From: Lachnospiraceae bacterium | GTDB taxonomy: Bacteria > Bacillota > Clostridia > Lachnospirales > Lachnospiraceae | NCBI GenBank assembly: GCA_017620375.1 | Contig: JAFZQN010000080.1 | Span: 8,130 to 72,129, forward strand | DNA: 64,000 nucleotides | Direction of reading: 5' to 3' | In this document: piece after piece, positions 12,422 to 48,585 of the stretch | Layout: every line of letters begins with the position of its first letter | How positions within the stretch are numbered: position 1 is the first letter of the stretch | Position numbers and translations under genes: made by a program | Notes under the pieces: generated by a model | Database searches by the model: none | What the model was told of the DNA's origin: nothing | What the model saw: only the letters and a program-made list of their open reading frames with translations

Positions 12422-12454
12422 AGAAGTTGTCATGGTTAAACCATGGCAACTTCT
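12422..12454 (-). terminator. 14-bp stem hairpin enclosing the purE stop codon (weak intra-operon terminator or processing/stability element)
   Basis: agaagttgtcatgg-ttaaa-ccatggcaacttct. On the minus strand it is followed by TGGTGTTTTAT. Confidence 0.3.
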
Positions 12455-12921
12455 GTATTTGCCTGTAAAACTTTTTCTGAATTGGCCTTTCGTTCTTTAT
12501 CCAATTTATCTGCAAGGGTATCATCATTAAGCGATAAGATTTCTATAGCAAGCAGTGCTGCATTGCTCGAACCGTCTATACCAACGGTCGCAACCGGTAT
12601 GCCGGAAGGCATCTGTACCGTAGAAAGGAGAGCATCCATACCGCCTAAGGAAGATGCATTTACGGGTATGCCGATAACGGGTATGGTGGTATTGGCTGCA
12701 ATGGCTCCTGCCAAGTGTGCTGCCATTCCGGCAGCGGCTATGATAACTCCAAATCCGTTGGCTCTGGCGTTAACGGAGAAGTCTCTTGCCTCTACAGGCG
12801 TCCTGTGTGCTGAAAACACATGTATTTCATAAGGAACCTCAAATCTCTTTAAGATATCTACTGCCTTTTCGAGCTTGGGAAGATCGCTCTTGCTTCCCAT
12901 GATGATGCCTACTTTTTTCAT
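12436..12921 (-). CDS. purE: N5-carboxyaminoimidazole ribonucleotide mutase (class I PurE-like)
   Basis: 161 aa with 'IIMGSKSDL' and 'AGMAAHLAG'. Confidence 0.9.
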   Translation of the reverse strand: MKKVGIIMGSKSDLPKLEKAVDILKRFEVPYEIHVFSAHRTPVEARDFSVNARANGFGVIIAAAGMAAHLAGAIAANTTIPVIGIPVNASSLGGMDALLSTVQMPSGIPVATVGIDGSSNAALLAIEILSLNDDTLADKLDKERKANSEKVLQANTEVAMV

Positions 12922-13287: not shown

Positions 13288-13380
13288 GTATATCTTGATT
13301 TAATTACACGTTCTTCGATTATGCTGAGATCCCTAACCTGCTTAGGAAGCTCGACAAAACCCAAGTAGATAGTGGGGTTT

Positions 13381-13602
13381 TTAGAACCAAGGCCAAAACC
13401 ACCAACTCTTCTTTTTGTAATGGACCGTCTTCATACCAGTATATCCACCACATACATTTTTCGGTTGTTCTACTTCTTCATAACCGATAACCTCACCGGT
13501 AGAAGAAAGAATCTCCTTGGGTGTGGGAGGATTGTAAGGTATACATTCAGTTGCAGAAAATGTAAGAACCTCAACCTCTGGAGTTACATATGCCTTCTTC
13601 AT
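13381..13602 (-). CDS. Lasso-type precursor-like peptide P1 (73 aa) with Trp-rich C-terminus
   Basis: MKKAYVTPEVEVLTFSATECIPYNPPTPKE...HYKKKSWWFWPWF. I take the ATG at 13602 (RBS GGAGG, complement of 13611-13615) rather than the track's GTG at 13611. The leader has the YxxPxVxxL...T motif shared with P2-P5. Confidence 0.6.
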   Translation of the reverse strand: MKKAYVTPEVEVLTFSATECIPYNPPTPKEILSSTGEVIGYEEVEQPKNVCGGYTGMKTVHYKKKSWWFWPWF

Positions 13603-14365
13603 TTGTTTCACCTCCGTTCTTATTTAAAATGAATTTATTGTTAATTATAGTATTGTAAACTACTTGAGCCGCTTCTGGATCCATATTACATTCAAGTTTG
13701 TAAAAGGGAAGGCTTCCAACCAATTTAAGATATAAATTCATGACTAGAGCTTTTTGACTAGGATTTGTTGGTACATGAGTACGCTTCATTAACATGTCCA
13801 ACGATTCTTTAACTCCGAGCGGTTTAACTTGGTTTTCTGTAGCTCTTTCAAGTTTTACTATCGCTTTTAGTGGTGCAGCAATGTTGTTGCTAAGATGATG
13901 CTTTCCGTTCCATGGAGTACCATAGACTTTCATTTCATCAACACGGATCAGAGGCTTGTCGTCATTGATCATCTGAACTCTTGAACCGAATACTTCTCGC
14001 CAAAGTCTGGTGTGAGTACTTTTCCCGGTGCCGCTTTTGGCGGTAAAGATTATTCCTTTGCCATCTATGGCAAGCGCGGATCCGTGAAGCATTATTGCGT
14101 TATACTCGCTTAATTTGTCTGCAATTAGAATATGAATTGCATTGTTTTCTAGAAAACTTTTAGGATAAGCGACCTTTGGACTTCCTTCTGACTCATTTAA
14201 GACATCAAAATCCGCTTGAACACCAATAATGGTCTCTTCGTCAGGTTCAACCGAAAAAGCAGGTTTTTTTGAAGTATAATATCCTGTAAAAAATGTCTTA
14301 TTCTCTTCATACTTGCATTTGACATTTATAGGAATGCCGGCAAGTTCAATACTAAAATCTTCCAC
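13571..14365 (-). CDS. HPr-kinase-related P-loop kinase, divergent from the three PadeK-like paralogs
   Basis: 264 aa with 'MLHGSALAIDGKGIIFTAKSGTGKSTHTRLW'. GTG start with RBS AGGAG. Its 3' end overlaps the P1 start by 32 nt. Confidence 0.6.
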   Translation of the reverse strand: MEDFSIELAGIPINVKCKYEENKTFFTGYYTSKKPAFSVEPDEETIIGVQADFDVLNESEGSPKVAYPKSFLENNAIHILIADKLSEYNAIMLHGSALAIDGKGIIFTAKSGTGKSTHTRLWREVFGSRVQMINDDKPLIRVDEMKVYGTPWNGKHHLSNNIAAPLKAIVKLERATENQVKPLGVKESLDMLMKRTHVPTNPSQKALVMNLYLKLVGSLPFYKLECNMDPEAAQVVYNTIINNKFILNKNGGETNEEGICNSRG

Positions 14366-14453
14366 AGAAGCTCCTGATAACTAATTCTTTTGTATAAAAA
14401 CTCAAGTCGAAATAATATATCCCAAATGAATTAACGATTATTTTCATTAGTAT

Positions 14454-14481
14454 ATTATATTATCAACATGCATTTGTGCAA
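14454..14481 (-). promoter_or_regulatory. Promoter candidate for the kinase-P1 unit
   Basis: Minus strand: TTGCAC, 16-nt spacer, TATAAT. Confidence 0.4.
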
Positions 14482-14816: not shown

Positions 14817-16727
14817 TTATAATGATAGGGAAATTTCTCTGGTTTTTTTGAGAGTCTGTTGTGCACTGATCAAGTTATTTAGGCAGTTAATGGTTCTTAT
14901 ATCTTGTATACTTTCTTCATAAGTTGGTTTTTCTTTATTGACAAAGTTTCTTAGTTTGTTAAAATCTATGTATTTACCCCAGGTTGCTTCATCAAGTTTG
15001 GAAACAACTGCATTCTTCATAGATAAGTACTTATCATACCAGTTTGGATCATTAGGAAGATTTTTTTTGCTGGTAGTTGACTTTTCAACTAATTTATATA
15101 ATGAAGGGGGCATAATATCCTTAAAAGCTTCACGAAAGATACTGCGATTTTGACCCGGCTTCAAAAATTGCTGCCTCGGAATGGATACGGCATAATCAAT
15201 TACACGATAATCCAGATATGGGATTAAATATCTTACATCACAAAATGCACCTTGTAGCGATACATTGTCTAATCGATTTCGACTTCCGCCGGTCAAAATA
15301 TACTTTTTTGTATCAATATTAAAGTATAGTTTTGAAGGGGCATCCTTTTTATGTTCTTGTGAAAAAACGTCATTAATTAATCCTTTTGCATTGATTGGGC
15401 AAGAAAAAGGGTTACGAAGACTTTTCTTCCCGCTGGCAATATTATTTCTGATGCTCTTTATCGTCCTTATAAGTCGGCGTGGCTGTCCGCTTAATCGCGC
15501 ATACATATATTTGAAATAATCAAAATATTCATGACTATGATACATTTCAAACGGATCAGCACGATGACTGACGCCTTCGTCACCGCCATGTCCTGTAAAG
15601 ATAGCTTTTATCCCATAATAGTTCATAAAAAGGCTTGTTTCGGTGATTTTGATCGTATTAATGTACGGCGGGGTAACAAAGTCATCTTCTGAGAGATTAT
15701 CGGTTGTTATTTCATTGCATATCTTATAATTATTTTGGAGAGGCATAGTCATATCAGGGATAAAATGCCTGTAATTACAAGTTATTTTTTCCTGATCGCA
15801 AATATCTTTTATTACTAATCTTTCATCATCGTCAGAGTATGGCAGATTATCAGGAGAATCTGACCACGAAAAGTAATAGCATTTTCTGCCAAGTTTATGA
15901 ATTAAAATGCTGATCACACCCGAATCAAGACCTCCGGATAGTTCAGCGCCTACATCTCCGGTAATCACATCCAGTCTCCGTTTTATGGAGTCGGTGATTA
16001 ATTCTTTAAGGTTATTCTTGTATTGAAGGTCGCTGTTAAACTTGATTTTTTTCTTACCTAATTCCCAGAATTTTATGGATGACTGATCAAATTTGCCATT
16101 ATTAAACTTTATCGTCAGACAGGTTCCTGGTTTGACACAAAAAATGTTAGAATATTCGGTATCCTCGAGGCCTAAAGTTTTGTATCCCATAATGCTTCTA
16201 AAAATCCATTGTTCATTAAGAGTTATATTTGCACGTTGAATACCGGTAAGACCTCTGATATCGGTGGAGAAAGCAATAAAATCATTCTCGATGCAATAGA
16301 ATAAGGGTCTAATCCCCATATGATCTCGGAATAGGGTAAGTTCTTTTTTTTCAGAATTATAGATGGCTCCTGAGAAATCTCCGTTAATATTTTTGAGTGC
16401 AGAGAGTCCTCTTGCGGTTATATAGGAAATTAATAATTGTTCATCAGATACAGTGGGAGGAACTGAACAATCTTCTAGCAGTTCAGATCTATTGTATATT
16501 AATGCATCAATGGCATATATCCGGCTATTGTTACTTATCACTGGTTCACTAGTATCAATGCTTTGATTGATTCTATCTTGACAGCAACCGATATAGTAAT
16601 CCTTTGATTGAATGATTTTATTATTGTATTTTCCATAAGGGAGATTCCAGGATTGCATCCCTTTTATCTCTTTATCGATTTCCATGGAAAAAGTGTACTT
16701 GTTTATCAGACCAAAAATGCTACTCAT
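14817..16727 (-). CDS. Asparagine-synthetase-like lasso cyclase (C protein), module 1
   Basis: 636 aa. The N-terminus 'MSSIFG' lacks the Cys2 glutaminase nucleophile of true AsnB. PP-loop 'AELSGGLDSGV'. Adjacent to precursor and kinase genes. Confidence 0.8.
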   Translation of the reverse strand: MSSIFGLINKYTFSMEIDKEIKGMQSWNLPYGKYNNKIIQSKDYYIGCCQDRINQSIDTSEPVISNNSRIYAIDALIYNRSELLEDCSVPPTVSDEQLLISYITARGLSALKNINGDFSGAIYNSEKKELTLFRDHMGIRPLFYCIENDFIAFSTDIRGLTGIQRANITLNEQWIFRSIMGYKTLGLEDTEYSNIFCVKPGTCLTIKFNNGKFDQSSIKFWELGKKKIKFNSDLQYKNNLKELITDSIKRRLDVITGDVGAELSGGLDSGVISILIHKLGRKCYYFSWSDSPDNLPYSDDDERLVIKDICDQEKITCNYRHFIPDMTMPLQNNYKICNEITTDNLSEDDFVTPPYINTIKITETSLFMNYYGIKAIFTGHGGDEGVSHRADPFEMYHSHEYFDYFKYMYARLSGQPRRLIRTIKSIRNNIASGKKSLRNPFSCPINAKGLINDVFSQEHKKDAPSKLYFNIDTKKYILTGGSRNRLDNVSLQGAFCDVRYLIPYLDYRVIDYAVSIPRQQFLKPGQNRSIFREAFKDIMPPSLYKLVEKSTTSKKNLPNDPNWYDKYLSMKNAVVSKLDEATWGKYIDFNKLRNFVNKEKPTYEESIQDIRTINCLNNLISAQQTLKKTREISLSL

Positions 16728-16762
16728 TATAAAACCTCATGTTATGGGGGAATAGTTAATAG

Positions 16763-16796
16763 TAAAAAAATAACCCTTGTCATAAATGACAAGGGT
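16763..16796 (-). terminator. Strong rho-independent terminator between precursor P2 and its cyclase
   Basis: Minus strand: acccttgtca-ttta-tgacaagggt followed by TATTTTTTT. Confidence 0.75.
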
Positions 16797-16812
16797 ATGA
16801 GCCGGAAAACAA

Positions 16813-17025
16813 TTATGATCTTGCACCTGTGGTTGCTTCTTCTTTACCATACTCGGTAGTAGCCTGCTGCTGATTCTGAGGAAGTGCACACTGCCATGTA
16901 GCTGCTTCCTGAACATAGCCATAAAGAGTACCATCGGACTTTATTTCCTGATAAACATTAAAATCACCATTAGCGGTCTCGCCAATGTTAAGAACTACAA
17001 CTTCTGCATTTTTCCAAGTCTTCAT
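16813..17025 (-). CDS. Lasso-type precursor-like peptide P2 (70 aa), C-terminal Ser
   Basis: MKTWKNAEVVVLNIGETANGDFNVYQE...EEATTGARS. RBS GGAGG 8 nt upstream. Leader motif WxxAxVxxL...T(-2). Confidence 0.65.
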   Translation of the reverse strand: MKTWKNAEVVVLNIGETANGDFNVYQEIKSDGTLYGYVQEAATWQCALPQNQQQATTEYGKEEATTGARS

Positions 17026-17083
17026 TATTTATTCCTCCAAAAATATAATAAAAATTCTATGCTTCACATAGTTTTCTTGTTTA

Positions 17084-17112
17084 ATAATACAGATTAATGA
17101 AATGGTTTTCAA
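17084..17112 (-). promoter_or_regulatory. Dedicated promoter candidate for precursor P2
   Basis: Minus strand: TTGAAA, 17-nt spacer, TATTAT. Confidence 0.5.
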
Positions 17113-17161
17113 GGTTTCTAACAAATATGATAGAAATTAATTATATAAATTAATAGGCCTG

Positions 17162-18067
17162 TTAAATCAAGGATAGAACCTTGTGATATATTTCGTCTAG
17201 TGTATCTTTGTTCTCGGGTCTTATAATAAGGTATATCTTAAATTTTGAGGCTGTTTTCATACACATATCAATAACTTCCTTTGAATTCTCCCATGACCCT
17301 TTAAGACGGTGTAAGAACAGATTATCCCGTATGGACATAAAACATTCGAATCCGCTTAACTTTCGTATAGTTAGTTCTTCTACAGGGGCCTTAATAATAT
17401 AAAAAAAAGAATTTGCTTTTTGAGGATTGTATTCGAAAATATCGTTAACAGGAACAAGATATTTGTCTTTATCTTCGTTTATGTAAATAAGATTTTTTTT
17501 ATCAAGTCCTCTTTTTTCAATCTCATTTGAACAAAGCTTTTGGAAAGGGAAAGCGGGATATACCAGACATTCATCATTGCTAAAGCGAATACCGGCTACA
17601 TCGTCTGCTAACAGTCTTAGTCTGGTTTCCAATAATTTTCCGGCAAGGGAAGACTTCCCTGCTCCAGGGGTACCCGAAATTAGAACAGCCCCTTCTTTTG
17701 TTGATACAGCACTGCAATGAATGGTTAATACGCCTCTTTGTAAGAGTGCGATGGAAAGACAAAACCCTGTAATCCATACAGAAATCGTATCATAATCGTA
17801 ACCTTCTTTTATTTTGACCCAAATTTCGTTGCCGTTTTGTATCAGATAGAACCCACCCCTGTTATAAAAAGCGGATTTATTAAGGCCTATTTCATATAAT
17901 TTTTCTACGGCATCATGTTCCGCCAAAAAACGGATAACATCAGTTTCAACATCTCTTTCTCTTACTGTTATCACATCTTGCACTGTATCTGAATCTCCTG
18001 CCGGAACGAGAAGATTCAATTCAAATTCAGACTCCAATATAATACCATAAATTTTATATCTGTGCAT
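17162..18067 (-). CDS. HPr-kinase-like P-loop kinase (PadeK-type lasso precursor kinase candidate), module 1
   Basis: 301 aa with 'YKIYG' N-terminus, 'IHCSAVSTKEGAVLISGTPGAGKSSLA' and 'YPAFPFQKLC'. Paralogous to 40987-41910 and 48586-49518. Confidence 0.75.
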   Translation of the reverse strand: MHRYKIYGIILESEFELNLLVPAGDSDTVQDVITVRERDVETDVIRFLAEHDAVEKLYEIGLNKSAFYNRGGFYLIQNGNEIWVKIKEGYDYDTISVWITGFCLSIALLQRGVLTIHCSAVSTKEGAVLISGTPGAGKSSLAGKLLETRLRLLADDVAGIRFSNDECLVYPAFPFQKLCSNEIEKRGLDKKNLIYINEDKDKYLVPVNDIFEYNPQKANSFFYIIKAPVEELTIRKLSGFECFMSIRDNLFLHRLKGSWENSKEVIDMCMKTASKFKIYLIIRPENKDTLDEIYHKVLSLI

Positions 18068-37445: not shown

Positions 37446-38618
37446 ATGACGACTATACAGAATTATTTGGCTGAACTTGTTCTTGCTCAACTAAATGGCA
37501 GGAAACCGGTAAATATTCCTGAAAACATAACTACTGATGAAATAATCGACATTGCCGGACGTAATCATATGATTTATCCTCTTTTAGGTGCGTTGATAAA
37601 GACGGATAATGTTCCTGAGGAGAAGGTAAACGATCTGCGCTTTAAAATTCAGAATAGTATATTAATGACATTGGCACAGGTAACTGAACTAAATATACTT
37701 GTAACCGCCCTTGAAAATGCCGGGATCAAGAACCAGCCCATGAAAGGGTCATGCATGAAGTTTATGTATCCATCTCCTGAACTACGAGAAATGAGTGATA
37801 TTGATATCCTTATAGCCGGAGAACAGATGGATGCTGCAGGTAAGGTTATGCTTGAACTGGGATACACCCTTGCGCAGTCGATCAAGCATCATGATATTTA
37901 TATGAAAAAACCGTTTATGGTTGTTGAAATACATCGTGCAATGTACGATAAGACAGTTGACGGTAATCAGTTTGATTATTTTAAGAGTTTTGAAAAGGCT
38001 GTTTTACGAGAAGGAAAAAAGTATACATATGACTTTAATAAAGAAGATTTTTATGTATATATGATCGCACACATGGCAAAACATTTTTATGCTATGGGGT
38101 GTGGTATACGTAATCTTTTAGATGTATATATTTATTTAGAAAAATATGGAAAGGAATTAGATCGTTCTTATCTTGATAGAGAATTAAAAAAATGCGGCAT
38201 TTATGATTTCGCGGTTAATGTAGAGGAACTGGCTTATATCTGGCTCGGTGGAAAAAAGGGCAGTCAATTCTATGATGACCTGTTTCAATATATGGTTGAC
38301 TGCGGTATATATGGTAAAGACGAGAATGGAATATGGCATAAATTTGCAGAAGAAAAGCTTGATGGTAAAGAGGTTACACGAGGAAAGCTTAAAAAATGGT
38401 ACTATTTTCCGCCGCTTTTTTATATGGCAGAGTACTATCCGTGGCTTGAAAAGTTTCCTTTCCTGCTCCCTGTAGCATGGTGTATTCGTGCATTTCGAGG
38501 TATATTTATGAAGAAGGGTATACAAAAAAGAGAAATGTTGAATGTGATAGATGGAGATAAGGCGAAAACATACCAAAATATTTATAAACAGATGAAACTA
38601 AAGTTTAAACATAAATAA
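37446..38618 (+). CDS. Nucleotidyltransferase-fold protein (NTP_transf_5 type) typical of Firmicutes lasso clusters
   Basis: 390 aa with 'MKGSCMKFMYPSPELREMSDIDILI'. Starts 12 nt after the GT2 stop. Confidence 0.7.
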   Translation: MTTIQNYLAELVLAQLNGRKPVNIPENITTDEIIDIAGRNHMIYPLLGALIKTDNVPEEKVNDLRFKIQNSILMTLAQVTELNILVTALENAGIKNQPMKGSCMKFMYPSPELREMSDIDILIAGEQMDAAGKVMLELGYTLAQSIKHHDIYMKKPFMVVEIHRAMYDKTVDGNQFDYFKSFEKAVLREGKKYTYDFNKEDFYVYMIAHMAKHFYAMGCGIRNLLDVYIYLEKYGKELDRSYLDRELKKCGIYDFAVNVEELAYIWLGGKKGSQFYDDLFQYMVDCGIYGKDENGIWHKFAEEKLDGKEVTRGKLKKWYYFPPLFYMAEYYPWLEKFPFLLPVAWCIRAFRGIFMKKGIQKREMLNVIDGDKAKTYQNIYKQMKLKFKHK

Positions 38619-38632
38619 GGGATTTACAGAGA

Positions 38633-39121
38633 ATGGCTAACGAATCAGATAATACTGAAGCAAAAAAAGGTTTTTGGTATAATTGTATATTAGCAAGAGG
38701 ATTCAGGTTTATAAAGTATAACAAAGCCAAGAAGCTTACTGCGCGTGCGATTTTTCTTTCAGCGTATTACAGACTATGCATATTGTTGGTAAAACCCAAG
38801 AAACTTCATAAACGATGGGGTGTGGAAGGTGAAGAGACAAGTATGGATGATGTAATGCCCTGGCAGTACAGATATTCTTACTGGGTTTCCTATGCAGTTG
38901 ATAAGGTGTGTTCAAGGACAGCCTGGGAGAGTAAATGTCTTGTGCGTGCTCTTACTGCCCAGCATCTGTTAAAAAAGAAAGGAATTCCTTCCACTATGTA
39001 CCTTGGGTGTAAAATGGAAGAAGGAAAGATGGTAGCCCATGCTTGGCTTAGGGTAGGAAAATATTATGTTACCGGGGGAAATGGAGAAGGGTATTCTATT
39101 GTTGACCGGTTCCGTACATAA
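38633..39121 (+). CDS. Lasso peptide leader peptidase B2 (transglutaminase-like Cys protease)
   Basis: 162 aa with 'WESKCLVRALTAQHLL' (Cys) and 'VAHAWLRVG' (His). Confidence 0.8.
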   Translation: MANESDNTEAKKGFWYNCILARGFRFIKYNKAKKLTARAIFLSAYYRLCILLVKPKKLHKRWGVEGEETSMDDVMPWQYRYSYWVSYAVDKVCSRTAWESKCLVRALTAQHLLKKKGIPSTMYLGCKMEEGKMVAHAWLRVGKYYVTGGNGEGYSIVDRFRT

Positions 39122-39148
39122 TTAATTTGATAGTTATGAGGTATTGAA

Positions 39149-40957
39149 ATGTCTGCTATATGGGGAGTTGTTGATTTTAACGGAAAAGCCATAGGAAATG
39201 ATATAAAAGAAAAAATGAAAGAGAGTTTTTCCGAATGTAAGATTGATAAGGTGCAAGATATACATAAGGATAATTATTATCTGGCAACAGGTATCCAGAA
39301 TATTGTAGAAGAGGCTCAATTGGAACAGTTTCCCTATACATATATTGATGGCAAAGTGATGGTAGCGGATGCTATAATAGACAATCGTACCGAAATGCTT
39401 ACGGAGTTTAAACTTAAAAATGAACTAAGTTTGAAAGAAATAGATGGAAGTATACTATATGAGTCAGTTGCTGGAAACTTAAGACAATCATTGGAAAAAC
39501 TATGTGGGGCATTTGCATTTGTAGAATATGATGAAAATGAGAAGACGATTTATGTAGCAAATGATGTTGTTGGAACCAGATCCATATATTATTCCTTTTG
39601 TAACGGACGCTTCGTTTTTTCTTCACTTATAAAAACAATCCTTCCCTTTATGCCGACTGTAGAAGTGGAAGAAAAATGGCTCTCACAGTTTATCGACAAT
39701 GACAACTTGTTAATAGTAGACAGTCCTTCGGCCACTCCATATAAAGAAATATATCGTTTAGAGCCCGGAGAATTGCTAATTATAAAAAAAGCAGGGGTAG
39801 AGCATATAGCTTATTGGGATCCGCGGAAAAAAGTTAAGAATTTAAAACTGAAAACCGATGAAGGATATAAAGCTCTTGTTTTGGATACTTTTAAAAAATG
39901 TGTAGAATCAGTTATTCGTACTCCGGGAGAAATTGGAATACTTTTAAGTGGAGGGTTGGATTCTAACGCAGTAGCAGCATATGCTGCACCGTTTTTAAAA
40001 AAAGCCGGAAAAAGACTTTTATCGTATACTTCTGTTCCAAATGATAAGATTGAACCAATTCCCAAGCGATCATATTACGTAAGCAATGAGAGGATTTATA
40101 TAGAAAAATTAAGAGAATACCATTCAAATCTGGAACCACACTTTATTGACGTCTCAAAGATAGATGTAATGAAGGACTTTGAGATAGTTTCCGAAATGAT
40201 TGAATCGCCAGTAAAAACAGTTGTAAATATGTCTTGGATATATGAATTGGTAAAACAGGCAGAATCGGATGGCTGTAAGATCCTTTTGGGAGGTCAATAC
40301 GGTAATATAACGATATCCTACGGATTTCTATATAACCTTTTTGCCACATATAAATATTCTGGTAGATTTATAAAACTGATAAAAGCTGTTAACACATATG
40401 GAAAAAAATATAAAAGAAACAGAAAAAGAGTGCTGAAATATGCATTACAAATAGAGAAAGTGCATTCCTTAAAAAAAGGAAGAACAAAGATGTATGACAA
40501 GGAGGCATTACGTCAAACCGGAGAGACGGAAATGCATGAATCCTTGGCATCAGGTCTGATATTCAGAGATCCCACCAGGGACCGAAGGCTTATTGAACTA
40601 GTGCTTTCTCTTCCTATCAAATGTTTTGTTGATGCTGAAACTGACCGAAGAATGGTTAGAGTATATATGAAAGATATAATTCCGGATATTATATGCTCCG
40701 ACCAATTTCATCGTGGATCTCAAGGGACTTCAGGATTTGATCAGATAAGAAATGACTGGGAAACAATAAAAAGTGATCTTATCCGGAAATATGGTCTTGC
40801 TTCCGGGAAAAAGTATCTGTCAAAAATGAATCTTTGTGAATGGATCGAGAAGATAGACGAAAAAGATAAATCTAATGAATTTAATTTGATGAAGGCTATT
40901 TATCTGGGTTATTTGTGCCAGTATCTTGAAAAAATGAATTCAACTGAAAAGAAGTAA
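39149..40957 (+). CDS. Asparagine-synthetase-like lasso cyclase (C protein), module 2
   Basis: 602 aa with 'MSAIWGV' (no Cys2) and PP-loop 'LLSGGLDSNA'. Confidence 0.85.
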   Translation: MSAIWGVVDFNGKAIGNDIKEKMKESFSECKIDKVQDIHKDNYYLATGIQNIVEEAQLEQFPYTYIDGKVMVADAIIDNRTEMLTEFKLKNELSLKEIDGSILYESVAGNLRQSLEKLCGAFAFVEYDENEKTIYVANDVVGTRSIYYSFCNGRFVFSSLIKTILPFMPTVEVEEKWLSQFIDNDNLLIVDSPSATPYKEIYRLEPGELLIIKKAGVEHIAYWDPRKKVKNLKLKTDEGYKALVLDTFKKCVESVIRTPGEIGILLSGGLDSNAVAAYAAPFLKKAGKRLLSYTSVPNDKIEPIPKRSYYVSNERIYIEKLREYHSNLEPHFIDVSKIDVMKDFEIVSEMIESPVKTVVNMSWIYELVKQAESDGCKILLGGQYGNITISYGFLYNLFATYKYSGRFIKLIKAVNTYGKKYKRNRKRVLKYALQIEKVHSLKKGRTKMYDKEALRQTGETEMHESLASGLIFRDPTRDRRLIELVLSLPIKCFVDAETDRRMVRVYMKDIIPDIICSDQFHRGSQGTSGFDQIRNDWETIKSDLIRKYGLASGKKYLSKMNLCEWIEKIDEKDKSNEFNLMKAIYLGYLCQYLEKMNSTEKK

Positions 40958-40986
40958 ACGGGGGAAGTTGCTCGCGGAGAGAATAG

Positions 40987-41910
40987 ATGAAAAAATATCG
41001 TTATAAAATATATGGTCTTATAGTTGAATCTGAATTGGAAATAGCACAAGCAACATCACTTTCAGTTGATAGGAAATCTTTAGAAAATGATGTTGAAATA
41101 GTATTTGGTGAAATACCCGAAAGATTAAGAAAAGCAGGAGAAGAAGGGTATGGATCATGGATCAACGGGTTTAAGGCTGCATGGTTTAATACGAAAGGTA
41201 CGGCACAATACCTTATTACCGGAGGAAATAAGATCGTAGTCCGTCCTTATCCTGATCCGGATGAAAAGTTGATGGTCTCAATGATACTCAGCGCAGGAAT
41301 GTCATTGATCCTTCTTCAAAGAAATGAGCCTGTTTTTCATGGAAGCGTTATAGAAAAAGAAGGATATGCATATATAATATCAGGTACCAGTGGAGCCGGA
41401 AAATCAACAGTAACTATGGAACTGTTAAAAGACAATGCTTGGCTGTTTATGGCTGATGATACCGTGCGATTGTCATTGGATAATGGGAAAATTCATTGTT
41501 ATCCAACATATCCACAACAAAAAGTATGTCGTGATCTGGCCTGCCGCATGGGGCTTGACTTAAGCGATATGATTTATATCGATGAGGGAAGAGATAAATT
41601 TGCATACAAAAGAACGGACAGATATTATGATCATACTGCAGAGCTGAAGAGTATATATATAATTAACAAAAGTAAAAATGTCTGTGAAGTAAAATATGAG
41701 AAATTACAGGGAATGGATTATGTTCATGCGTTTATAAATAACTTGTACCTTTCGGATAATTATAAACGAGATACGGGAGTTCCGAATGAATTTATGAAAC
41801 TGATAAATCTATTATTTCATCAGGCAGATATTTATCTTATTACTCGCCCTGAAGAAGGGGATACCGTAAAAAATGTTGTAGATACAATAAGATTCTTACA
41901 AAGTTGTTAG
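40987..41910 (+). CDS. HPr-kinase-like kinase (PadeK-type), module 2
   Basis: 307 aa with 'YKIYG', 'FHGSVIEKEGYAYIISGTSGAGKSTVT' and 'YPTYPQQKVC'. Confidence 0.8.
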   Translation: MKKYRYKIYGLIVESELEIAQATSLSVDRKSLENDVEIVFGEIPERLRKAGEEGYGSWINGFKAAWFNTKGTAQYLITGGNKIVVRPYPDPDEKLMVSMILSAGMSLILLQRNEPVFHGSVIEKEGYAYIISGTSGAGKSTVTMELLKDNAWLFMADDTVRLSLDNGKIHCYPTYPQQKVCRDLACRMGLDLSDMIYIDEGRDKFAYKRTDRYYDHTAELKSIYIINKSKNVCEVKYEKLQGMDYVHAFINNLYLSDNYKRDTGVPNEFMKLINLLFHQADIYLITRPEEGDTVKNVVDTIRFLQSC

Positions 41911-41915
41911 AAAGA

Positions 41916-41944
41916 TTTACTTTTTTTAATCAACGGTGTATTAT
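41916..41944 (+). promoter_or_regulatory. Promoter candidate in front of the tandem precursors
   Basis: TTTACT, 17-nt spacer, TATTAT. Confidence 0.3.
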
Positions 41945-41997
41945 TACAGCGATAGTTAAGGAATTACATTAACAGATTAATTAAGGAGGAAAAAAAA

Positions 41998-42183
41998 ATG
42001 AAGACATGGACAAGTCCTGTAGTAGAAGAACTTGATGTTAAGGTTACTGAGTATGATCCCAATGGTGGTACTAGACCCGATGCATTTCTTAAAGATGAGC
42101 ATACAGGAGAAATAACAAAGTACTTATATGGACCTTCTGCAGGAGATGCAGGTGATCCTACAATTGTTGGTACAGAGGCATAA
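41998..42183 (+). CDS. Lasso-type precursor peptide P3 (61 aa)
   Basis: MKTWTSPVVEELDVKVTEYDPNGGTRPDAFLKDEH...IVGTEA. RBS AAGGAGG. Confidence 0.75.
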   Translation: MKTWTSPVVEELDVKVTEYDPNGGTRPDAFLKDEHTGEITKYLYGPSAGDAGDPTIVGTEA

Positions 42184-42205
42184 TTTTATTTTTTGGAGGT
42201 CAAGT

Positions 42206-42394
42206 ATGAAGAAGTGGGAAAACCCTGAGATGGTTAAACTTAACATTAATATGACAGCATATGGTGATGATACAAGTAAGGAGCCTGATTGGACTATTTA
42301 TTCAATCGGCGGAGATAAGATTCTTGATCAGACATTTGGACCTTCAGGATCAGAACATCCTGCAGATGCTGTTGTTAAACAGACACAGCCTTAA
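42206..42394 (+). CDS. Lasso-type precursor peptide P4 (62 aa)
   Basis: MKKWENPEMVKLNINMTAYGDDTSKEPDW...VVKQTQP. This is an internal ATG of the 88-aa track ORF, with RBS GGAGG 5 nt upstream. Confidence 0.75.
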   Translation: MKKWENPEMVKLNINMTAYGDDTSKEPDWTIYSIGGDKILDQTFGPSGSEHPADAVVKQTQP

Positions 42395-42412
42395 TATGGT
42401 ATATATTTAAAG

Positions 42413-42452
42413 GAAAAGAATCCGAAGTTTTTACTTCGGATTTTCTTTTGTT
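42413..42452 (+). terminator. Rho-independent terminator after the precursors and before B1/exporter
   Basis: gaaaagaatccgaagt-tttt-acttcggattttcttt followed by TGTTT. Confidence 0.75.
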
Positions 42453-42517
42453 TGCATTTATACTTTATATATGATAAAATAACCTAGAATATGTATTAAT
42501 ATTTTGGGAGGTTTACG

Positions 42518-42781
42518 ATGGACAAAGATACAAAAATAGTATTAAAAAAGAAACTTAATGTTACAGATCTTGCCGGTGAGAAGGTAATGGTAGATTTTGA
42601 TAGTGGTAAGTATTTCCTTATTAAGGGTGTCGGAAACGATATATGGGAGATGATCCAGAATGAAATTACCCCCAACGAGATAATAGACAAACTGCTTTCT
42701 GAGTACGATGTAAACAGGGAGGAATGTGAGAAGTCTGTTATGGAATTCCTTAAGAAAATGGAAGGCTATAATTTTATTTAA
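42518..42781 (+). CDS. PqqD-family leader-recognition protein (lasso B1 / RRE)
   Basis: 87 aa with 'VTDLAGEKVMVDFDSGKYFLIKGVGNDIWEMI...EECEKSVMEFLKKM'. Confidence 0.8.
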   Translation: MDKDTKIVLKKKLNVTDLAGEKVMVDFDSGKYFLIKGVGNDIWEMIQNEITPNEIIDKLLSEYDVNREECEKSVMEFLKKMEGYNFI

Positions 42782-42793
42782 CTGGTATAAAAA

Positions 42794-44473
42794 ATGGGAA
42801 AACTGAAAGAAGCATGGAAAGACAGGGATAACCAATATAAATATGCTAAATGGCTGATGAAGTATTCTAAGCCATATATGGGTCGTATTACACTTATGAT
42901 GGCGTTTAGCATTATTTCAACGGTGGTCTCTCTATGGATGGTGCAGATATCCAAAAATATTATAGATAATGCTACCGGTGGCAATAAGTTTGTCACTCTG
43001 CTTATTGTATATTTTTGTTTAATGATCGCTATGCAAGTAGTGGGTATAGTATCTACACTATTATCAGCGATACTTAGTGAGAAATTCTCATTTGGTATTA
43101 GGAAGCAGATATATGATAAGATTATCAGATCGCATTGGATGGATGTAAAGAGGTATCATACGGGCGATCTTATGACCAGGCTTACCAGCGATGCAGGAGC
43201 TATAGCAGATGGTATCATTGGAACAATACCCAATATCATAATCTTGTTTGTAGAACTGTTGATGGTGTTTGTTACATTATTTATTTATTCACCGTTACTT
43301 GCAGTATTTGCAATGCTTGTTGCACCTGTTGCGGCTTTGGTATCCTTCTTCCTGGGAAAGAAGCTGAAAAAGCTGCAAATAAAGGTTCAGGAATCGGAAT
43401 CTAATTATCGCTCATTCCTTCAGGAAAGTTTGGCAAATCTTCTCGTGGTAAAATCATTTGCAAATGAGGACTATTCTGTTGACAGGCTTACTACTCTTAG
43501 AGAAGAACGTTTCAAATGGGTCTTTAAAAAGACCAAGATGAGTATAGCCAGTAGTACTGTGATGTCTATGACATTTCAGCTGGGATATATTGTAGCCTTT
43601 GCCTATGGAGCATGGCAGATTTCTACCGGACAGATCACATATGGTACCATGACGGTGTTTCTTACTTTGGTAAACAGGGTACAAAGTCCGATAATCGGTT
43701 TGGCGCAACAGATTCCGAGAGTAGTATCGGTACTAGCTTCAGCGGGACGAGTTATAGAGTTACAGAATATTCCCGTAGAGGAACGTTTACCGGAAGTAGT
43801 GACCTCTGACAAGATCGGTGTGGATATAGAAAATCTTACTTTTGGATATACAGATGAGATCGTACTTGATAATGTGTCCTTAAATATCAAGCCGGGTGAA
43901 TTTGTTGCAATTATCGGTGAATCCGGCATAGGAAAAACTACTTTGCTGCGTATTATTATGTCTTTCATGGGTAATTATACAGGAAAAGTGGACTTCTTTG
44001 ATGAGAATGGGTTAACGGACCCTGCAAATGCCAATACAAGAAGATTTATATCGTATGTACCTCAGGGTAATACCTTATTCAGCGGTACAGTCAGAGAAAA
44101 CATACGCATGGGTAAACTTGATGCTACGGATGAAGAAATGTGGGATGCATTGAAGCTTTCCGCAGGATATGACTTTGTCAAGGAGTTACCTAACGGTCTT
44201 TATACTGTCATAGGTGAGAGAGGACATGGTATCTCGGAAGGTCAGGCACAGCGTATAGCTATAGCGAGAGCTTTTGTACGAAAAGCTCCGCTGCTTATCC
44301 TGGATGAAGCTACATCTGCTCTTGATGAGAATACTGAGAAGGAAGTAATAAAAGGTCTTCAGCAGCTTGAGCCGCGTCCGACCTGTATAGTTGTTACTCA
44401 TAGAAAGAGTATACTTACTTATTGTGACCGAGAGATCAAGATTGAGAACAAAAACATGGAAGAGATACAGTAA
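42794..44473 (+). CDS. ABC exporter, fused TMD-NBD (McjD-like lasso export/immunity candidate)
   Basis: 559 aa with Walker A 'GESGIGKTTL', signature 'ISEGQAQRIAIARA' and Walker B 'LLILDEATS'. No C39 peptidase domain. Confidence 0.85.
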   Translation: MGKLKEAWKDRDNQYKYAKWLMKYSKPYMGRITLMMAFSIISTVVSLWMVQISKNIIDNATGGNKFVTLLIVYFCLMIAMQVVGIVSTLLSAILSEKFSFGIRKQIYDKIIRSHWMDVKRYHTGDLMTRLTSDAGAIADGIIGTIPNIIILFVELLMVFVTLFIYSPLLAVFAMLVAPVAALVSFFLGKKLKKLQIKVQESESNYRSFLQESLANLLVVKSFANEDYSVDRLTTLREERFKWVFKKTKMSIASSTVMSMTFQLGYIVAFAYGAWQISTGQITYGTMTVFLTLVNRVQSPIIGLAQQIPRVVSVLASAGRVIELQNIPVEERLPEVVTSDKIGVDIENLTFGYTDEIVLDNVSLNIKPGEFVAIIGESGIGKTTLLRIIMSFMGNYTGKVDFFDENGLTDPANANTRRFISYVPQGNTLFSGTVRENIRMGKLDATDEEMWDALKLSAGYDFVKELPNGLYTVIGERGHGISEGQAQRIAIARAFVRKAPLLILDEATSALDENTEKEVIKGLQQLEPRPTCIVVTHRKSILTYCDREIKIENKNMEEIQ

Positions 44474-45320
44474 ATGTAGTGCCTTGACCTAAAGTACTTT
44501 CGGCATTTATAGTTCCTCCGTGCCGTTCCACTATAGCGCGTGCGATGGAAAGACCGAGACCGCTGCCGGAGGTTTCTCCGGGGGTACGGGCATTTGAAAC
44601 AGTATATGTTCTGGTAAATATATGGGGTAGTGCTTCGGGCGCTATCCCATTTCCATTATCAGATACGGATATTATAAGTTGTGCGCTGGAAGGTGAAAAA
44701 ACACTAGGATTCTCTACGTTATTCTTAGAACTAGGTTTATAGATATGAGCACTAAGTCGAATGTAGGTTGCCTTTTCTCCGGCATATTTAGCTGCGTTTG
44801 TAAGTAAATTATCAAGGACGCGTACGATTTTCTGTGGTTCGATATTTATAACGCAGTTTAAATCTGCAGGGACGTCCAGTAGCATGTCAAACCGGTCATA
44901 TCGGGAATCTATGATAGCATCATAGTAGTATTCTTCCAGAAATGTACAGGCATCAACAGATTGAATCTTTAATGGACGGGCTTCATCTTCGACATTGAAA
45001 AGATAATACATATCGTTGATGAGTTCCTCTAAAGAGGATGTACGTCTGTCAATAAGCGAAAAAAGTTTCCTGCTTTCATCAATGGAAAGATTATCGGAGG
45101 TCAATGCCAAATCTATTGCACTGCGGATGGCAGTGATCGGAGCTCTTAAGTCATGAGAGATATTGGCAAGCATCATTTCTCTTTCTTTCTGGAGAGTCCG
45201 GAGCCTGGAATGAGCCTCTAACAATTCACTTGTCAATTCTTCTACGGATTTTGTTTCAAGGTTTGGTGATTGGAAAGCTTTGCTCATTTTTCGTATCATG
45301 CCGCAGACATGCTTACACAT
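44436..45320 (-). CDS. Histidine kinase core (DHp + HATPase) without recognisable sensor or TM region
   Basis: 294 aa with H-box 'ISHDLRAPITAI', 'DNGNGI' and 'GSGLGLSIA'. No RBS at the ATG at 45320. The 3' end overlaps the convergent exporter gene by 38 nt. Confidence 0.65.
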   Translation of the reverse strand: MCKHVCGMIRKMSKAFQSPNLETKSVEELTSELLEAHSRLRTLQKEREMMLANISHDLRAPITAIRSAIDLALTSDNLSIDESRKLFSLIDRRTSSLEELINDMYYLFNVEDEARPLKIQSVDACTFLEEYYYDAIIDSRYDRFDMLLDVPADLNCVINIEPQKIVRVLDNLLTNAAKYAGEKATYIRLSAHIYKPSSKNNVENPSVFSPSSAQLIISVSDNGNGIAPEALPHIFTRTYTVSNARTPGETSGSGLGLSIARAIVERHGGTINAESTLGQGTTFTVSLPCFCSQS

Positions 45321-45402
45321 CGGGGTCGTGCCTGGAGCGACACCGATGGAAGTTTGAAAATGTAACTCTCAAACTTTATCTCCTAAGAAAAAACAGTATG
45401 GC

Positions 45403-46095
45403 TCACTTTACTATGAATTTATACCCTTTTGACCAAACAGTTTCGACCATGTTATATAGGGTATAATCAATATTCATTTTTTTGCGGAGCCTACTTACAT
45501 TTACCATTATCGTACGTCTGTCAAGTTCGCTGTATGTTCCGAATAGAGACTTACCAAGTTCTTCGAAGGTGATGGTCTGGTTCGGATGAGAGCAGAAATA
45601 CATTAGAATATCATAATCGCGATTGGTGAGTTCCAAGTCTTTATCCATATAAAAAGCCTTATGAAGAGCCATGTCAATCTTGAGATCGCCGAAAACAAGA
45701 GTGTTTTGGTCGGTTTTTGGGGCGGTGAGCATACCTGCGCGCCTTAATTGAGCGTCTATGCGGGCTTTAAGCTCTTTTAGGCTAAAGGGTTTAATGATAT
45801 AATCGTCGCCACCGGTTACAAGTCCTTTTATTTTGTCATCTTCGGATACTTTACCTGTGAGGAATATGATAGGGATGGCGGAAAATTGTCTGATCCTGCT
45901 ACATAGTTCATATCCATCCATGCCGGGCATCATAACATCAAGGACTATAAGGTCCGGATGTTTGGCCTTTGCGATATTAAGACCCAGTAGGGGATTTGAA
46001 GCGGTATAAACTTTAAAATCCTGCGAAACAAGGTATTTTTTGTTCATCTCCAAAACTGCAGCATCATCATCAATCAGTAAAAGTGTGGCAGCCAT
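45403..46095 (-). CDS. OmpR/PhoB-family response regulator
   Basis: 230 aa with 'LLLIDDD', 'DLIVLDVMMPGMDG' and a C-terminal winged helix. Confidence 0.88.
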   Translation of the reverse strand: MAATLLLIDDDAAVLEMNKKYLVSQDFKVYTASNPLLGLNIAKAKHPDLIVLDVMMPGMDGYELCSRIRQFSAIPIIFLTGKVSEDDKIKGLVTGGDDYIIKPFSLKELKARIDAQLRRAGMLTAPKTDQNTLVFGDLKIDMALHKAFYMDKDLELTNRDYDILMYFCSHPNQTITFEELGKSLFGTYSELDRRTIMVNVSRLRKKMNIDYTLYNMVETVWSKGYKFIVK

Positions 46096-46535: not shown

Positions 46536-46624
46536 TTAGATACACTCCAATCTTTATCATATTTTAAAAACTATTTAAAGTTTATCACAGGCATATAAAA
46601 AAGAAAAGAATTATAACAAAAATG

Positions 46625-48574: not shown

Positions 48575-48585
48575 TGAATGACTCC

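What the first reader, a model, noticed from the sequence alone, without database searches (positions are those of the whole stretch)
13381..14365. P1 has a cationic Trp-rich C-terminus and is paired with a divergent HPr-kinase-related protein whose gene overlaps it
P1 ends ...VHYKKKSWWFWPWF: 4 Trp and 2 Phe in the last 8 residues, preceded by KKK. This looks like a membrane-active, Trp-rich antimicrobial-peptide tail.

It is encoded 3' of a 264-aa P-loop protein (LHGSALAIDGKGIIFTAKSGTGKST). That protein is only distantly related to the three PadeK-like kinases, and its stop lies 32 nt inside the P1 ORF.

The pair has its own promoter candidate (14454-14481) and terminator. It may be a distinct sub-system that borrows the module-1 cyclase.
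Basis: partly seen in the sequence, partly recalled or inferred. Interest (0 to 1): 0.7.

Follow-up and report, generated by a model that had tools for sequence, protein, structure and literature searches.

The report
Kinase plus Trp-tailed peptide precursor pair
This is a rumen-Clostridia version of the recently described "linear polyphosphorylated peptide" natural-product systems: an LppK-type peptide kinase and its precursor peptide, whose tryptophan-rich tail is conserved in relatives, sitting beside lasso-peptide genes but without its own recognition protein or leader peptidase.

Summary
P1 is 73 aa from ATG 13602 and ends KKKSWWFWPWF. The 264-aa P-loop gene (13571-14365) overlaps it by 32 nt.

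The 264-aa protein belongs to Pfam PF27840 (ScmC). This is the family of LppK, the kinase of the LPP RiPPs (Popov et al. 2026). It matches an LppK orthologue better than a paeninodin-type kinase. It keeps every family-invariant residue and is under strong purifying selection (dN/dS about 0.1).

P1 has a YxxP leader. The neighbouring lasso precursors have W-type leaders, the same split reported for LPP versus paeninodin systems.

About ten P1 orthologues each follow an orthologous kinase. All end in divergent but Trp/Phe/Gly/Pro-rich tails, so the tail is a selected feature.

[quoted passage not shown] Here and in close relatives only kinase plus precursor remain, embedded among lasso and exopolysaccharide genes.

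The overlap comes from a lineage-specific stop-codon loss. Use of the lasso cyclase is not supported. Antimicrobial activity is untested.

Verdict: a new variant of a known but barely characterised kind. Moderate interest.

The parts
13571..14365 (-). LppK-type (PF27840 'ScmC') HprK/PEPCK-fold peptide kinase gene, 264 aa. P-loop SGTGKST at residues 111-117, NDD at 134-136. Residues 246-264 are a lineage-specific disordered extension.
   Evidence: all family-invariant residues kept. (pLDDT 89.5 overall, below 50 for residues 246-264). (PEPCK and HprK/P folds). (closest to LppK). (dN/dS 0.09-0.14).
13381..13602 (-). P1, a 73-aa RiPP precursor (LppA-like); stop codon at 13381-13383.
   Evidence: Called as a gene in 4 metagenome assemblies. 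Orthologues lie downstream of orthologous kinases.
13549..13602 (-). Conserved leader MKKAYVTPEVEVLTFSAT. It contains the YxxP RRE-type motif (Y5-P8, nt 13579-13590) and an F..T element resembling the F-E-T cleavage motif of LppA.
   Evidence: Motif definitions come from PMC13381572.
13492..13512 (-). Invariant ILSSTGE motif (residues 31-37). S34 is the inferred phospho-acceptor. It is the counterpart of the Ser conserved at Y+19 in Clostridial precursors and of phospho-Ser3 (Y+18) of LppA.
   Evidence: I31 L32 S33 S34 G36 E37 invariant in 8 sequences. (Ser at Y+19 in 26 of 33). (LppA Ser3). The acceptor role is inferred, not shown.
13384..13416 (-). Cationic, Trp-rich C-terminal tail KKKSWWFWPWF (residues 63-73).
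   Evidence: Aromatic composition is conserved across orthologues. It is rare among background ORFs.
13571..13602 (-). 32-nt overlap of the kinase 3' end with the P1 5' end. It is derived: the ancestral TAA is now AAA and the spacer is shortened.
   Evidence: Relatives have non-overlapping genes.
13609..13615 (-). Shine-Dalgarno GGAGGTG for P1, conserved in orthologues.
   Evidence: invariant GGAGGT columns.
14371..14375 (-). Shine-Dalgarno AGGAG, 5 nt upstream of the GTG start of the kinase.
14437..14466 (-). Promoter-like site (TTGATA-18-AATAAT) in the 451-nt gap between the cyclase and the kinase. Weak evidence only.
   Evidence: hits are not enriched over shuffles.
13356..13381 (-). Hairpin immediately after the P1 stop codon. 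It lacks a U-tract beyond the stem and is a weak terminator candidate.
   Evidence: z = -1.6. Not called by the terminator scan.
14817..18067 (-). Adjacent lasso-type module, given as context and not part of the pair. It comprises a PadeK-like kinase (17162-18067), a W-leader precursor ending in Ser (16813-17025) and an AsnB-like cyclase (14817-16727).
42518..42781 (+). The only PqqD/RRE in the window. It is of lasso (paeninodin B1) type, belongs to the complete lasso BGC at 37446-44473, and is not an LppB-type RRE.
   Evidence: NF033536, 79.4 bits. (PbaB1 1.2e-17 versus LppB 3.4e-6)..

Best explanation
The pair is a reduced, Clostridial variant of an LPP-type (linear polyphosphorylated peptide) RiPP module.

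Shown:
- The 264-aa protein is an intact member of the LppK/ScmC kinase family and is under purifying selection.
- P1 is its cognate precursor. It has a conserved YxxP-type leader, an invariant ILSSTGE motif and a rapidly evolving core that always ends in a Trp/Phe-rich tail.

Inferred:
- The kinase uses ATP to phosphorylate a conserved Ser of P1, most likely S34 in ILSSTGE and possibly repeatedly, as LppK does on Ser3 of LppA.
- The leader is then removed by an SpI-like peptidase presented by a Y-specific PqqD-type RRE.
- Both of these are normal partners of this kinase family, but neither is encoded in this window. They must be supplied from elsewhere in the genome or be dispensable.
- Export could use an MsbA-like ABC transporter such as the one at 42794-44473.
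- The product would be a linear peptide with an anionic, phosphorylated N-terminal part and a cationic, Trp-rich C-terminal tail. Such a tail is suited to inserting into membrane interfaces.

Its biological role is unknown, as it is for LPPs in general. Candidates are an antimicrobial or an envelope- or exopolysaccharide-associated role.
For: Family membership of the kinase:
- The window protein and its 5498 homologues carry PF27840.
- The lpp locus of Paenibacillus frigoriresistens has an LppS 97% identical to the characterised P. alginolyticus enzyme.
- Its LppK orthologue starts MELFHTQIGE, as in the paper's cloning primer, and also carries PF27840. It is 261 aa.
- hhalign of the family profile gives 98.7% probability, E 2.5e-16, against LppK. 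Against the paeninodin-type kinase it gives 95.6%, E 1.2e-8.
- The paper's own table lists TIGR04249 (ScmC) among the HprK-kinase hits of LPP BGCs.

Intact enzyme:
- All 43 family-invariant positions are present.
- The AF2 model is confident and has a PEPCK/HprK fold.
- dN/dS is 0.09-0.14 against four orthologues.

Family context:
- In 80 species-level loci, PqqD was present in 69, SpI-like peptidase in 57, both in 53, ABC transporter in 41 and a radical SAM enzyme in 25.
- This is the LppK/LppB/LppS/LppD architecture.
- The SpI-like proteins match LppS at about 1e-7.

Precursor:
- P1 has YxxP, while the lasso precursors in the window have WxxP or WxxA. This is the discrimination rule reported for LPP versus paeninodin.
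- The conserved Ser lies at Y+19 in Clostridial precursors, against Y+18 for phospho-Ser3 of LppA.

Genomic setting:
- The locus sits beside paeninodin-like lasso genes and exopolysaccharide genes, as reported for LPPs.

Pair conserved without partners:
- L015, L016, L017, L019, L102 and the window all show it.
Against: - No LppB-type RRE and no SpI-like peptidase are encoded in the 64-kb window.
- The only PqqD is of the W-leader lasso type. By the published rule it should bind a Y leader poorly.
- Identity to LppK is only 23%, over the P-loop and C-terminal domains.
- LppK lacks several residues that are invariant in the Clostridial family (H118, W122/R123, the GTPWNGKH motif). The chemistry could therefore differ.
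- A profile of Bacilli LPP leaders does not significantly match P1 (E >= 0.6).
- The spacing from YxxP to F..T is 3 residues shorter, and P1 has Cys at +2 rather than Ser at +3 after that Thr.
- Some relatives fuse this kinase domain to a radical SAM enzyme. Phosphorylation may therefore not be its only or ancestral role.
- No expression or mass-spectrometry data exist.
Confidence: 0.7

Rival explanations
1. Decaying remnant. The pair is what is left of a radical-SAM RiPP cluster such as that in relative L005. That cluster has a kinase-rSAM fusion, a second precursor and PqqD. After a deletion next to purE the pair no longer makes a product.
For: - In L005, L103 and L104 the syntenic locus carries a 618-aa ScmC-rSAM fusion, a second precursor and PqqD between the P1 homologue and purE.
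- The window lacks all of these.
- The kinase has lost its normal stop codon.
Against: - Kinase dN/dS is 0.09-0.14 and all invariant residues are kept.
- The P1 leader, the ILSSTGE motif, the RBS and the aromatic tail are conserved in at least six lineages that also lack rSAM, PqqD and SpI at the locus.
- In L005 the P1-type pair coexists with the rSAM unit as a separate duplicate rather than being part of it.
- There are no pseudogene fragments between P1 and purE.
Confidence: 0.1
2. Hybrid lasso substrate. P1 is cleaved and cyclised by the neighbouring lasso machinery (B1, B2 and the AsnB-like cyclase), and the 264-aa kinase acts as a tailoring enzyme.
For: - In this clade the pair is always flanked by one or two AsnB-like cyclases and a PadeK-like kinase.
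- P1-type leaders carry a conserved T-x-C, which resembles the Thr(-2) and Cys1 of some lasso precursors.
- A full set of B1, B2 and D genes exists at 37446-44473.
Against: - Counting from that Cys, Asp/Glu falls at variable positions (3, 4, 6, 9, 10, 11, 12). There is no consistent residue at 7-9 across orthologues (sequences).
- The lasso precursors of the same loci, by contrast, nearly all have Gly1 and Glu8.
- P1 has YxxP and the window's RRE is of the W type.
- Each cyclase already has its own precursor gene.
- Family-wide, only 1 of 80 kinase loci has an AsnB-like gene.
Confidence: 0.08
3. The 264-aa protein is not a Ser kinase on P1. Instead it catalyses a different ATP-dependent step, for example activating a carboxylate or nucleotidylating the peptide. 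Alternatively it acts as a scaffold or regulator, or as an immunity factor for an essentially unmodified Trp-rich bacteriocin.
For: - The Clostridial family has its own invariant motifs that are absent from LppK.
- Many family precursors have short acidic cores with no Ser or Thr beyond the junction motif.
- The domain is fused to radical SAM enzymes in some genomes (P0188, 616 aa).
- The best structural matches are PEPCK, which is not a protein kinase.
Against: - The P-loop plus the downstream DD motif is the HprK/P catalytic arrangement.
- The one characterised member of PF27840 (LppK) is a peptide Ser kinase.
- A Ser at a fixed distance from the RRE-binding Tyr is the most conserved precursor residue after Y, P and E.
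Confidence: 0.12

Closest known systems
LPP (linear polyphosphorylated peptide) BGCs of Bacilli: LppA/K/B/S/D/N (Popov et al., Nat Commun 2026, PMC13381572)
   Same: - The kinase is in the same Pfam family (PF27840) and of the same size as LppK.
- The precursor has a YxxP-type leader followed by an F..T element and a hypervariable core.
- The locus is co-localised with paeninodin-like lasso BGCs (W-type leaders) inside an exopolysaccharide locus.
- Family-wide in Clostridia, the partners are the same: a discrete PqqD RRE, an archaeal-type signal peptidase and an ABC exporter.
   Different: - Identity to LppK is only 23%, and the Clostridial family has its own invariant motifs.
- The leader is 3 residues shorter between YxxP and F..T, and it is not detected by a Bacilli LPP-leader profile.
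- There is no Ser at +3. The conserved Ser sits in ILSSTGE after a clade-specific insertion.
- There is no LppB, LppS or dedicated LppN/LppD at this locus.
- The Trp-rich C-terminal tail is specific to this clade.
- Some relatives add radical SAM enzymes, including kinase-rSAM fusions.
Paeninodin-type phosphorylated lasso peptides (PadeK/ThcoK HprK-like kinases)
   Same: - An HprK-fold kinase acts on a RiPP precursor.
- Such systems are present in the same window: three kinases, three cyclases, one B1, one B2 and one D.
   Different: - The 264-aa protein matches PbaK only weakly (2.8e-6, against 1e-21 or better for the three roughly 300-aa kinases).
- P1 has a Y leader rather than a W leader, no C-terminal Ser and no ring-forming Asp/Glu at positions 7-9.
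SynChlorMet cassette protein ScmC (TIGR04249) with ScmE/F radical SAM-SPASM enzymes
   Same: - Same superfamily, and the Pfam family name comes from it.
- Some relatives pair the kinase with PqqD and radical SAM/SPASM enzymes.
   Different: - The score is 20 bits against a cutoff of 125, so it is not an equivalog.
- There is no radical SAM gene in the window.
- The function of ScmC itself is unknown.
Trp/Pro-rich cationic antimicrobial peptides (indolicidin, tritrpticin). Resemblance recalled from general knowledge, not tested.
   Same: A short cationic stretch followed by W/F/P-rich sequence with WPW-like motifs.
   Different: - There is no homology.
- Here the motif is the C-terminal 11 residues of a roughly 37-55-aa bacterial RiPP core whose remainder is acidic and probably phosphorylated.
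- Activity is untested.

Membership tests
LPP RiPP family (Popov et al. 2026) | LppK-type HprK-like kinase | tested here: met
   - PF27840 is found on both the window protein and the LppK orthologue.
- hhalign gives 98.7%, E 2.5e-16, against LppK, versus 95.6%, E 1.2e-8, against the paeninodin kinase.
- phmmer gives 4.7e-9 versus 2.8e-6.
- The relationship is distant (23% identity).
LPP RiPP family (Popov et al. 2026) | Discrete Y-specific RRE (LppB) in the cluster | tested here: not met
   The only PqqD in the 64 kb (42518-42781) is of lasso B1 type: PbaB1 1.2e-17 versus LppB 3.4e-6, and NF033536 at 79.4 bits. The rest of the genome was not available.
LPP RiPP family (Popov et al. 2026) | Archaeal-type signal peptidase I leader peptidase (LppS) | tested here: not met
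   No window ORF matches LppS or the Clostridial SpI-like proteins. It is present in 57 of 80 loci of the wider kinase family.
LPP RiPP family (Popov et al. 2026) | Precursor leader motif YxxPxVLxHQxIxFETxxS | tested here: inconclusive
   - YxxPxV and an F..T element are present.
- The spacing is 3 residues shorter and Ser(+3) is replaced by Cys(+2).
- An HMM of 13 Bacilli LPP leaders gives E >= 0.6 and aligns only MKKxYxxPxV.
- A conserved Ser exists at a similar distance from Tyr in the Clostridial consensus.
LPP RiPP family (Popov et al. 2026) | MsbA-like exporter and NTP transferase in the cluster | tested here: inconclusive
   Both exist in the window (42794-44473 and 37446-38618), but inside the complete lasso BGC 23-29 kb away. 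Family-wide, ABC is present in 41 of 80 loci and NTP_transf_5 in only 8 of 80.
LPP RiPP family (Popov et al. 2026) | Co-localisation with a paeninodin-like lasso BGC within a polysaccharide locus | tested here: met
   The lasso module at 14817-18067 is directly adjacent, and Bac_transf and glycosyltransferase genes start at 18317.
LPP RiPP family (Popov et al. 2026) | Kinase-dependent (poly)phosphorylation of a core Ser | not testable with these tools
   This needs co-expression and mass spectrometry. The candidate site S34 is inferred from conservation.
Paeninodin-like lasso peptide precursor | W-type leader, Thr(-2), small residue 1, Asp/Glu at core position 7-9, C-terminal Ser for phosphorylation | tested here: not met
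   P1 has YxxP, has no consistent acidic residue at 7-9 in any register across orthologues, and ends in Phe/Trp.
SynChlorMet cassette ScmC (TIGR04249 equivalog) | Score above the curated cutoff, and neighbouring ScmE/ScmF radical SAM-SPASM enzymes | tested here: not met
   The score is 20.0 bits against a cutoff of 125. No CxxxCxxC radical SAM ORF occurs in the window.
HPr kinase/phosphorylase (TIGR00679 / PF07475) | Score above the cutoff; bifunctional HprK/P with N-terminal domain | tested here: not met
   Scores are 21.8 bits against a cutoff of 240, and 17.4 against 33.3. Only the fold and the P-loop/DD core are shared.
Curated Trp-rich or other peptide families in NCBIfam/Pfam (for example the amphi-Trp domain of the HPr-rel-A system, recalled from memory) | Profile match of P1 | tested here: not met
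   P1 matched no NCBIfam or Pfam model at E <= 0.1.

The most novel reading that the evidence does not exclude
The P1 clade may be a new sub-class of LPP-like peptides. In it, a minimal kinase-plus-precursor pair, with no dedicated RRE or leader peptidase, would make an amphiphile with a (poly)phospho-Ser head and a Trp-rich, interface-seeking tail. This product would act at the cell envelope. It could be a membrane-anchored polyanionic peptide linked to the surrounding exopolysaccharide and lasso genes, or a phosphorylation-masked Trp-rich antimicrobial. More broadly, the Clostridial PF27840 family has at least 1709 clusters at 50% identity with E <= 1e-30. It would then be a large, hypervariable RiPP class whose chemistry differs from that of Bacilli LPPs, given its own invariant motifs, its rSAM fusions and its acidic Ser-free cores.
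Probability: 0.15. Interest if true: 0.75.

Novelty: new variant of a known kind. Interest (0 to 1): 0.5.

Why it matters
LPPs were described only in 2026. Their final structures and biological roles are still unknown, and they were studied only in Bacilli.

This locus ties a very large, uncharacterised kinase family of rumen and gut Clostridia to that biology. The family has thousands of sequence clusters, all labelled 'hypothetical protein'.

The locus also shows a stripped-down form (kinase plus precursor only) that evolution has kept. And it offers a precursor whose conserved Trp-rich tail gives a concrete, testable functional handle: membrane binding or antimicrobial activity, with and without phosphorylation.

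Finally, it provides a natural test of the published Y-versus-W leader discrimination rule. One Y-leader precursor coexists here with four W-leader lasso precursors and a single W-type RRE.

Tried and rejected
- A homology search with P1 alone found only itself. Orthologues had to be recovered from the neighbourhoods of kinase homologues and from a pattern scan of metagenomes.
- A sequence search of the PDB with the family profile gave nothing meaningful. Only the fold search was informative.
- A literature search for 'ScmC' and 'SynChlorMet' returned only unrelated acronyms. 'HPr kinase + RiPP + radical SAM' returned one general genome-mining paper, which I did not follow up.
- My first working idea was a radical-SAM (sacti- or ranthipeptide-like) system, prompted by L005 and L012. 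I downgraded it when 55 of 80 family loci proved to have no radical SAM gene.
- I considered the kinase-like protein as a lasso-cyclase analogue (carboxylate activation, N-terminal Gly plus Asp/Glu at 7-9). No consistent ring register appeared in the cores.
- I searched for remnants of rSAM, PqqD, DUF4956, VTC and CotH genes between P1 and purE. There were none.
- A Bacilli LPP-leader HMM did not detect P1.
- The promoter and terminator scan was not above background.
Full report
**What is in the sequence.** On the minus strand, between purE (12436-12921) and an exopolysaccharide gene block (from 18317), the window carries the following genes:
- a 301-aa HprK-like kinase (17162-18067);
- a 70-aa peptide gene (16813-17025);
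- a 636-aa AsnB-like lasso cyclase (14817-16727);
- after a 451-nt gap, the 264-aa P-loop gene (13571-14365);
- P1 (13381-13602).

P1 most likely starts at ATG 13602, which has GGAGGTG six nt upstream. That makes it 73 aa, ending KKKSWWFWPWF. The kinase ORF ends 32 nt inside P1. The same arrangement is found in four independent metagenome contigs, so it is not an assembly artefact. The source is a ruminant-gut Lachnospiraceae MAG.

**The 264-aa protein.**
- Curated HMMs give only sub-threshold hits to HprK, HprK-related kinase A/B and ScmC.
- A database search found 5498 homologues at 90% clustering, nearly all about 245 aa and carrying Pfam PF27840 'ScmC'.
- A full profile search found 1709 clusters at 50% identity with E <= 1e-30, and 6909 with E <= 1e-10.
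- The window protein keeps all 43 invariant columns of a 26-sequence alignment, including HGS, SGTGKSTH, LWRE, NDDKP, GTPWNGKH and CNM.
- AlphaFold2 gives a confident model (pLDDT 89.5) except for residues 246-264.
- Foldseek finds only PEPCK (E 3e-7) and HprK/P (E 1e-5) folds. No solved close relative exists.
- Against four orthologues, dN/dS is 0.09-0.14.
- It is therefore an intact, selected enzyme of the PEPCK/HprK phosphotransferase superfamily.

**P1 and its relatives.**
- P1 alone finds no homologues.
- However, the genes downstream of orthologous kinases encode clear P1 orthologues.
- They share MKKxYVTPEVEILxFxETxC, a variable insert, and the invariant ILSS[TN]GE.
- They then diverge almost completely, yet every one ends in a W/F/G/P-rich tail. 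Examples are ...HKKVSGWGWWPWLRWW, ...GFKGWFGGWFGWFGW, ...SYRGPFGWFHWSW, ...SKKKYYFIPFWPFW, ...SSHGWWFWCWWPW, ...KKKLIYVWPLGWISWPW, ...SSGWGFGGWWPWW and ...CCYGWGGWIYK.
- Background six-frame ORFs almost never end like this.
- The aromatic tail is therefore a selected property of this clade. The KKK is frequent but not universal.

**The overlap.**
- In relatives the kinase stops 48-87 nt before P1.
- The DNA alignment shows the ancestral TAA is AAA in the window and part of the spacer is deleted. The P1 RBS and start are invariant.
- The resulting 19-aa extension is predicted to be disordered.
- The overlap is thus a recent accident, not a conserved coupling device.
- Promoter-like and terminator-like signals are no stronger than in shuffled sequence.

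**The family context.**
- I examined 80 species-level loci, almost all from rumen or gut Clostridia.
[quoted passage not shown] An AsnB-like cyclase appears in only 1.
- Next to these genes lie precursors with a conserved leader and hypervariable cores (acidic, Cys-rich or Gly-rich).
- The leader consensus is Y-x-K-P-E-M-E-h-h-E-[FL]-x-x-[ED]-[DN]-h-I-x-T-S. The Ser at Y+19 is present in 26 of 33.
- Some relatives of the window locus (L005, L103, L104, L020) add a kinase-radical SAM fusion, a second precursor and PqqD.
- The window has none of these, and no remnants of them.
- The window-type minimal pair recurs in L015, L016, L017, L019 and L102, always among lasso-type genes.

**Link to a known system.**
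- Popov et al. (Nat Commun 2026, PMC13381572) describe 'linear polyphosphorylated peptides' (LPPs) in Bacilli.
- The BGCs encode LppA, the HprK-like kinase LppK, the discrete RRE LppB, the SipW-like peptidase LppS, the exporter LppD and the NTP transferase LppN.
- The LppA leader is YxxPxVLxHQxIxFETxxS. It is cleaved after Thr(-1), and Ser3 is polyphosphorylated.
- These BGCs are often adjacent to paeninodin-like lasso BGCs inside capsule loci. Tyr-versus-Trp in the leader decides which RRE binds.
- The final products and their functions are unknown.
- I retrieved the orthologous locus from P. frigoriresistens, whose LppS is 97% identical.
- Its LppK carries PF27840 and is 261 aa. Its N-terminus matches the paper's primer.
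- The family profile matches it with 98.7% probability (E 2.5e-16), better than the paeninodin-type kinase of the same locus (95.6%, E 1.2e-8).
- Conversely, the window's three roughly 300-aa kinases match the paeninodin kinase at 1e-21 to 6e-25. The window's only PqqD matches lasso B1 (1e-17) far better than LppB (3e-6).
- The window also holds a complete lasso BGC at 37446-44473 (N, B2, C, K, two precursors, B1, D) and a third cyclase/kinase/precursor set at 46323-49518.
- All four precursors of these lasso-type modules have W-type leaders. P1 alone has YxxP.

**Interpretation.**
- The pair is an LPP-like module of a Clostridial lineage: an LppK-type kinase and its precursor.
- By analogy, the kinase phosphorylates a conserved Ser. 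I propose S34 of ILSSTGE. It corresponds to the Ser at Y+19 of the Clostridial consensus, which lies at nearly the same distance from the RRE-binding Tyr as phospho-Ser3 of LppA (Y+18). P1-type leaders carry a 4-10-residue insertion before it.
- Leader removal would normally need an SpI-like peptidase and a Y-type RRE. Neither is in the window, so they are either elsewhere in the genome or dispensable in this clade. That is the main open point.

Differences from the published family are substantial:
- 23% identity to LppK, with Clostridia-specific invariant motifs;
- a leader that a Bacilli LPP profile does not detect;
- no Ser at +3;
- rare NTP transferase (8 of 80 loci);
- frequent radical SAM partners.

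I therefore file it as a new variant of a known kind rather than a plain member.

**Rivals.**
- A dead remnant is unlikely, given purifying selection and the recurrence of the minimal pair.
- Use of the neighbouring lasso cyclase is not supported. There is no consistent Asp/Glu at 7-9, the leader type is wrong and the C-terminus is wrong.
- A chemistry other than Ser phosphorylation cannot be excluded.
- The antimicrobial reading of the tail rests only on compositional resemblance to indolicidin-type peptides, recalled from general knowledge. It is untested.

Noticed in passing
window 37446-44473 (+): A complete paeninodin-like lasso BGC. It comprises NTP_transf_5-like (37446-38618), B2 transglutaminase-like peptidase (38633-39121), cyclase (39149-40957), PadeK-like kinase (40987-41910), two WxxP precursors (41998-42183 and about 42195-42394), B1 PqqD (42518-42781) and an ABC exporter (42794-44473).
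   Followed up: partly
window 46323-49518 (-) and 14817-18067 (-): Two further kinase + cyclase + precursor sets with no B1, B2 or exporter of their own. Three cyclases and three PadeK-like kinases appear to share one B1/B2/D set.
   Followed up: partly
window 16813-17025 (-); L005, L015-L017 class I peptides: - The lasso-type precursors of this clade are long (59-85 aa).
- They have the leader MKxWxNAEVxELxIxETA[NG] (WxxA rather than WxxP in module A).
- The core nearly always has Gly1 and Glu8.
- All end in Ser, the expected acceptor for the PadeK-like kinase.
   Followed up: partly
L005 9580-11436; also L103, L104-L106; P0188 (616 aa): The LppK/ScmC-like domain is fused to the N-terminus of a radical SAM/SPASM enzyme. 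It is followed by a precursor with the same leader and by PqqD. This is a Rosetta-stone link between this kinase family and radical SAM peptide maturation.
   Followed up: partly
L012 10280-10483, L020 9915-10154, L021, L046, L103 8514-8744: Precursors associated with radical SAM enzymes share a strongly conserved core, GDVGRGRGRGGGCDGVPYHRNxRTFSSGRNSGC, across distant Clostridia. The other cores of the family are hypervariable.
   Followed up: no
16-20 of loci L019-L098, e.g. L037 9005-10351: A second, unrelated roughly 448-aa radical SAM family (CNARCVYC motif) accompanies the kinase/PqqD/SpI triad. Its neighbouring precursors are usually Cys-rich.
   Followed up: no
window 44436-46095 (-): A two-component system (294-aa histidine kinase and 230-aa response regulator) lies between two lasso modules. 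It is a possible regulator of the peptide clusters.
   Followed up: no
L016 3486-6715; L005 12127-15345: A DUF4956/VTC/CotH gene trio (polyphosphate-related VTC domain and CotH kinase) lies beside the P1-type locus in relatives. It is absent from the window.
   Followed up: no
window 13543-13545 and 13444-13446 (Cys20, Cys53 of P1): Two Cys are conserved in position class across most P1-type peptides: one right after the F..T element and one in the variable core. If the leader is cut at F..T, this would allow a disulfide-closed loop.
   Followed up: no
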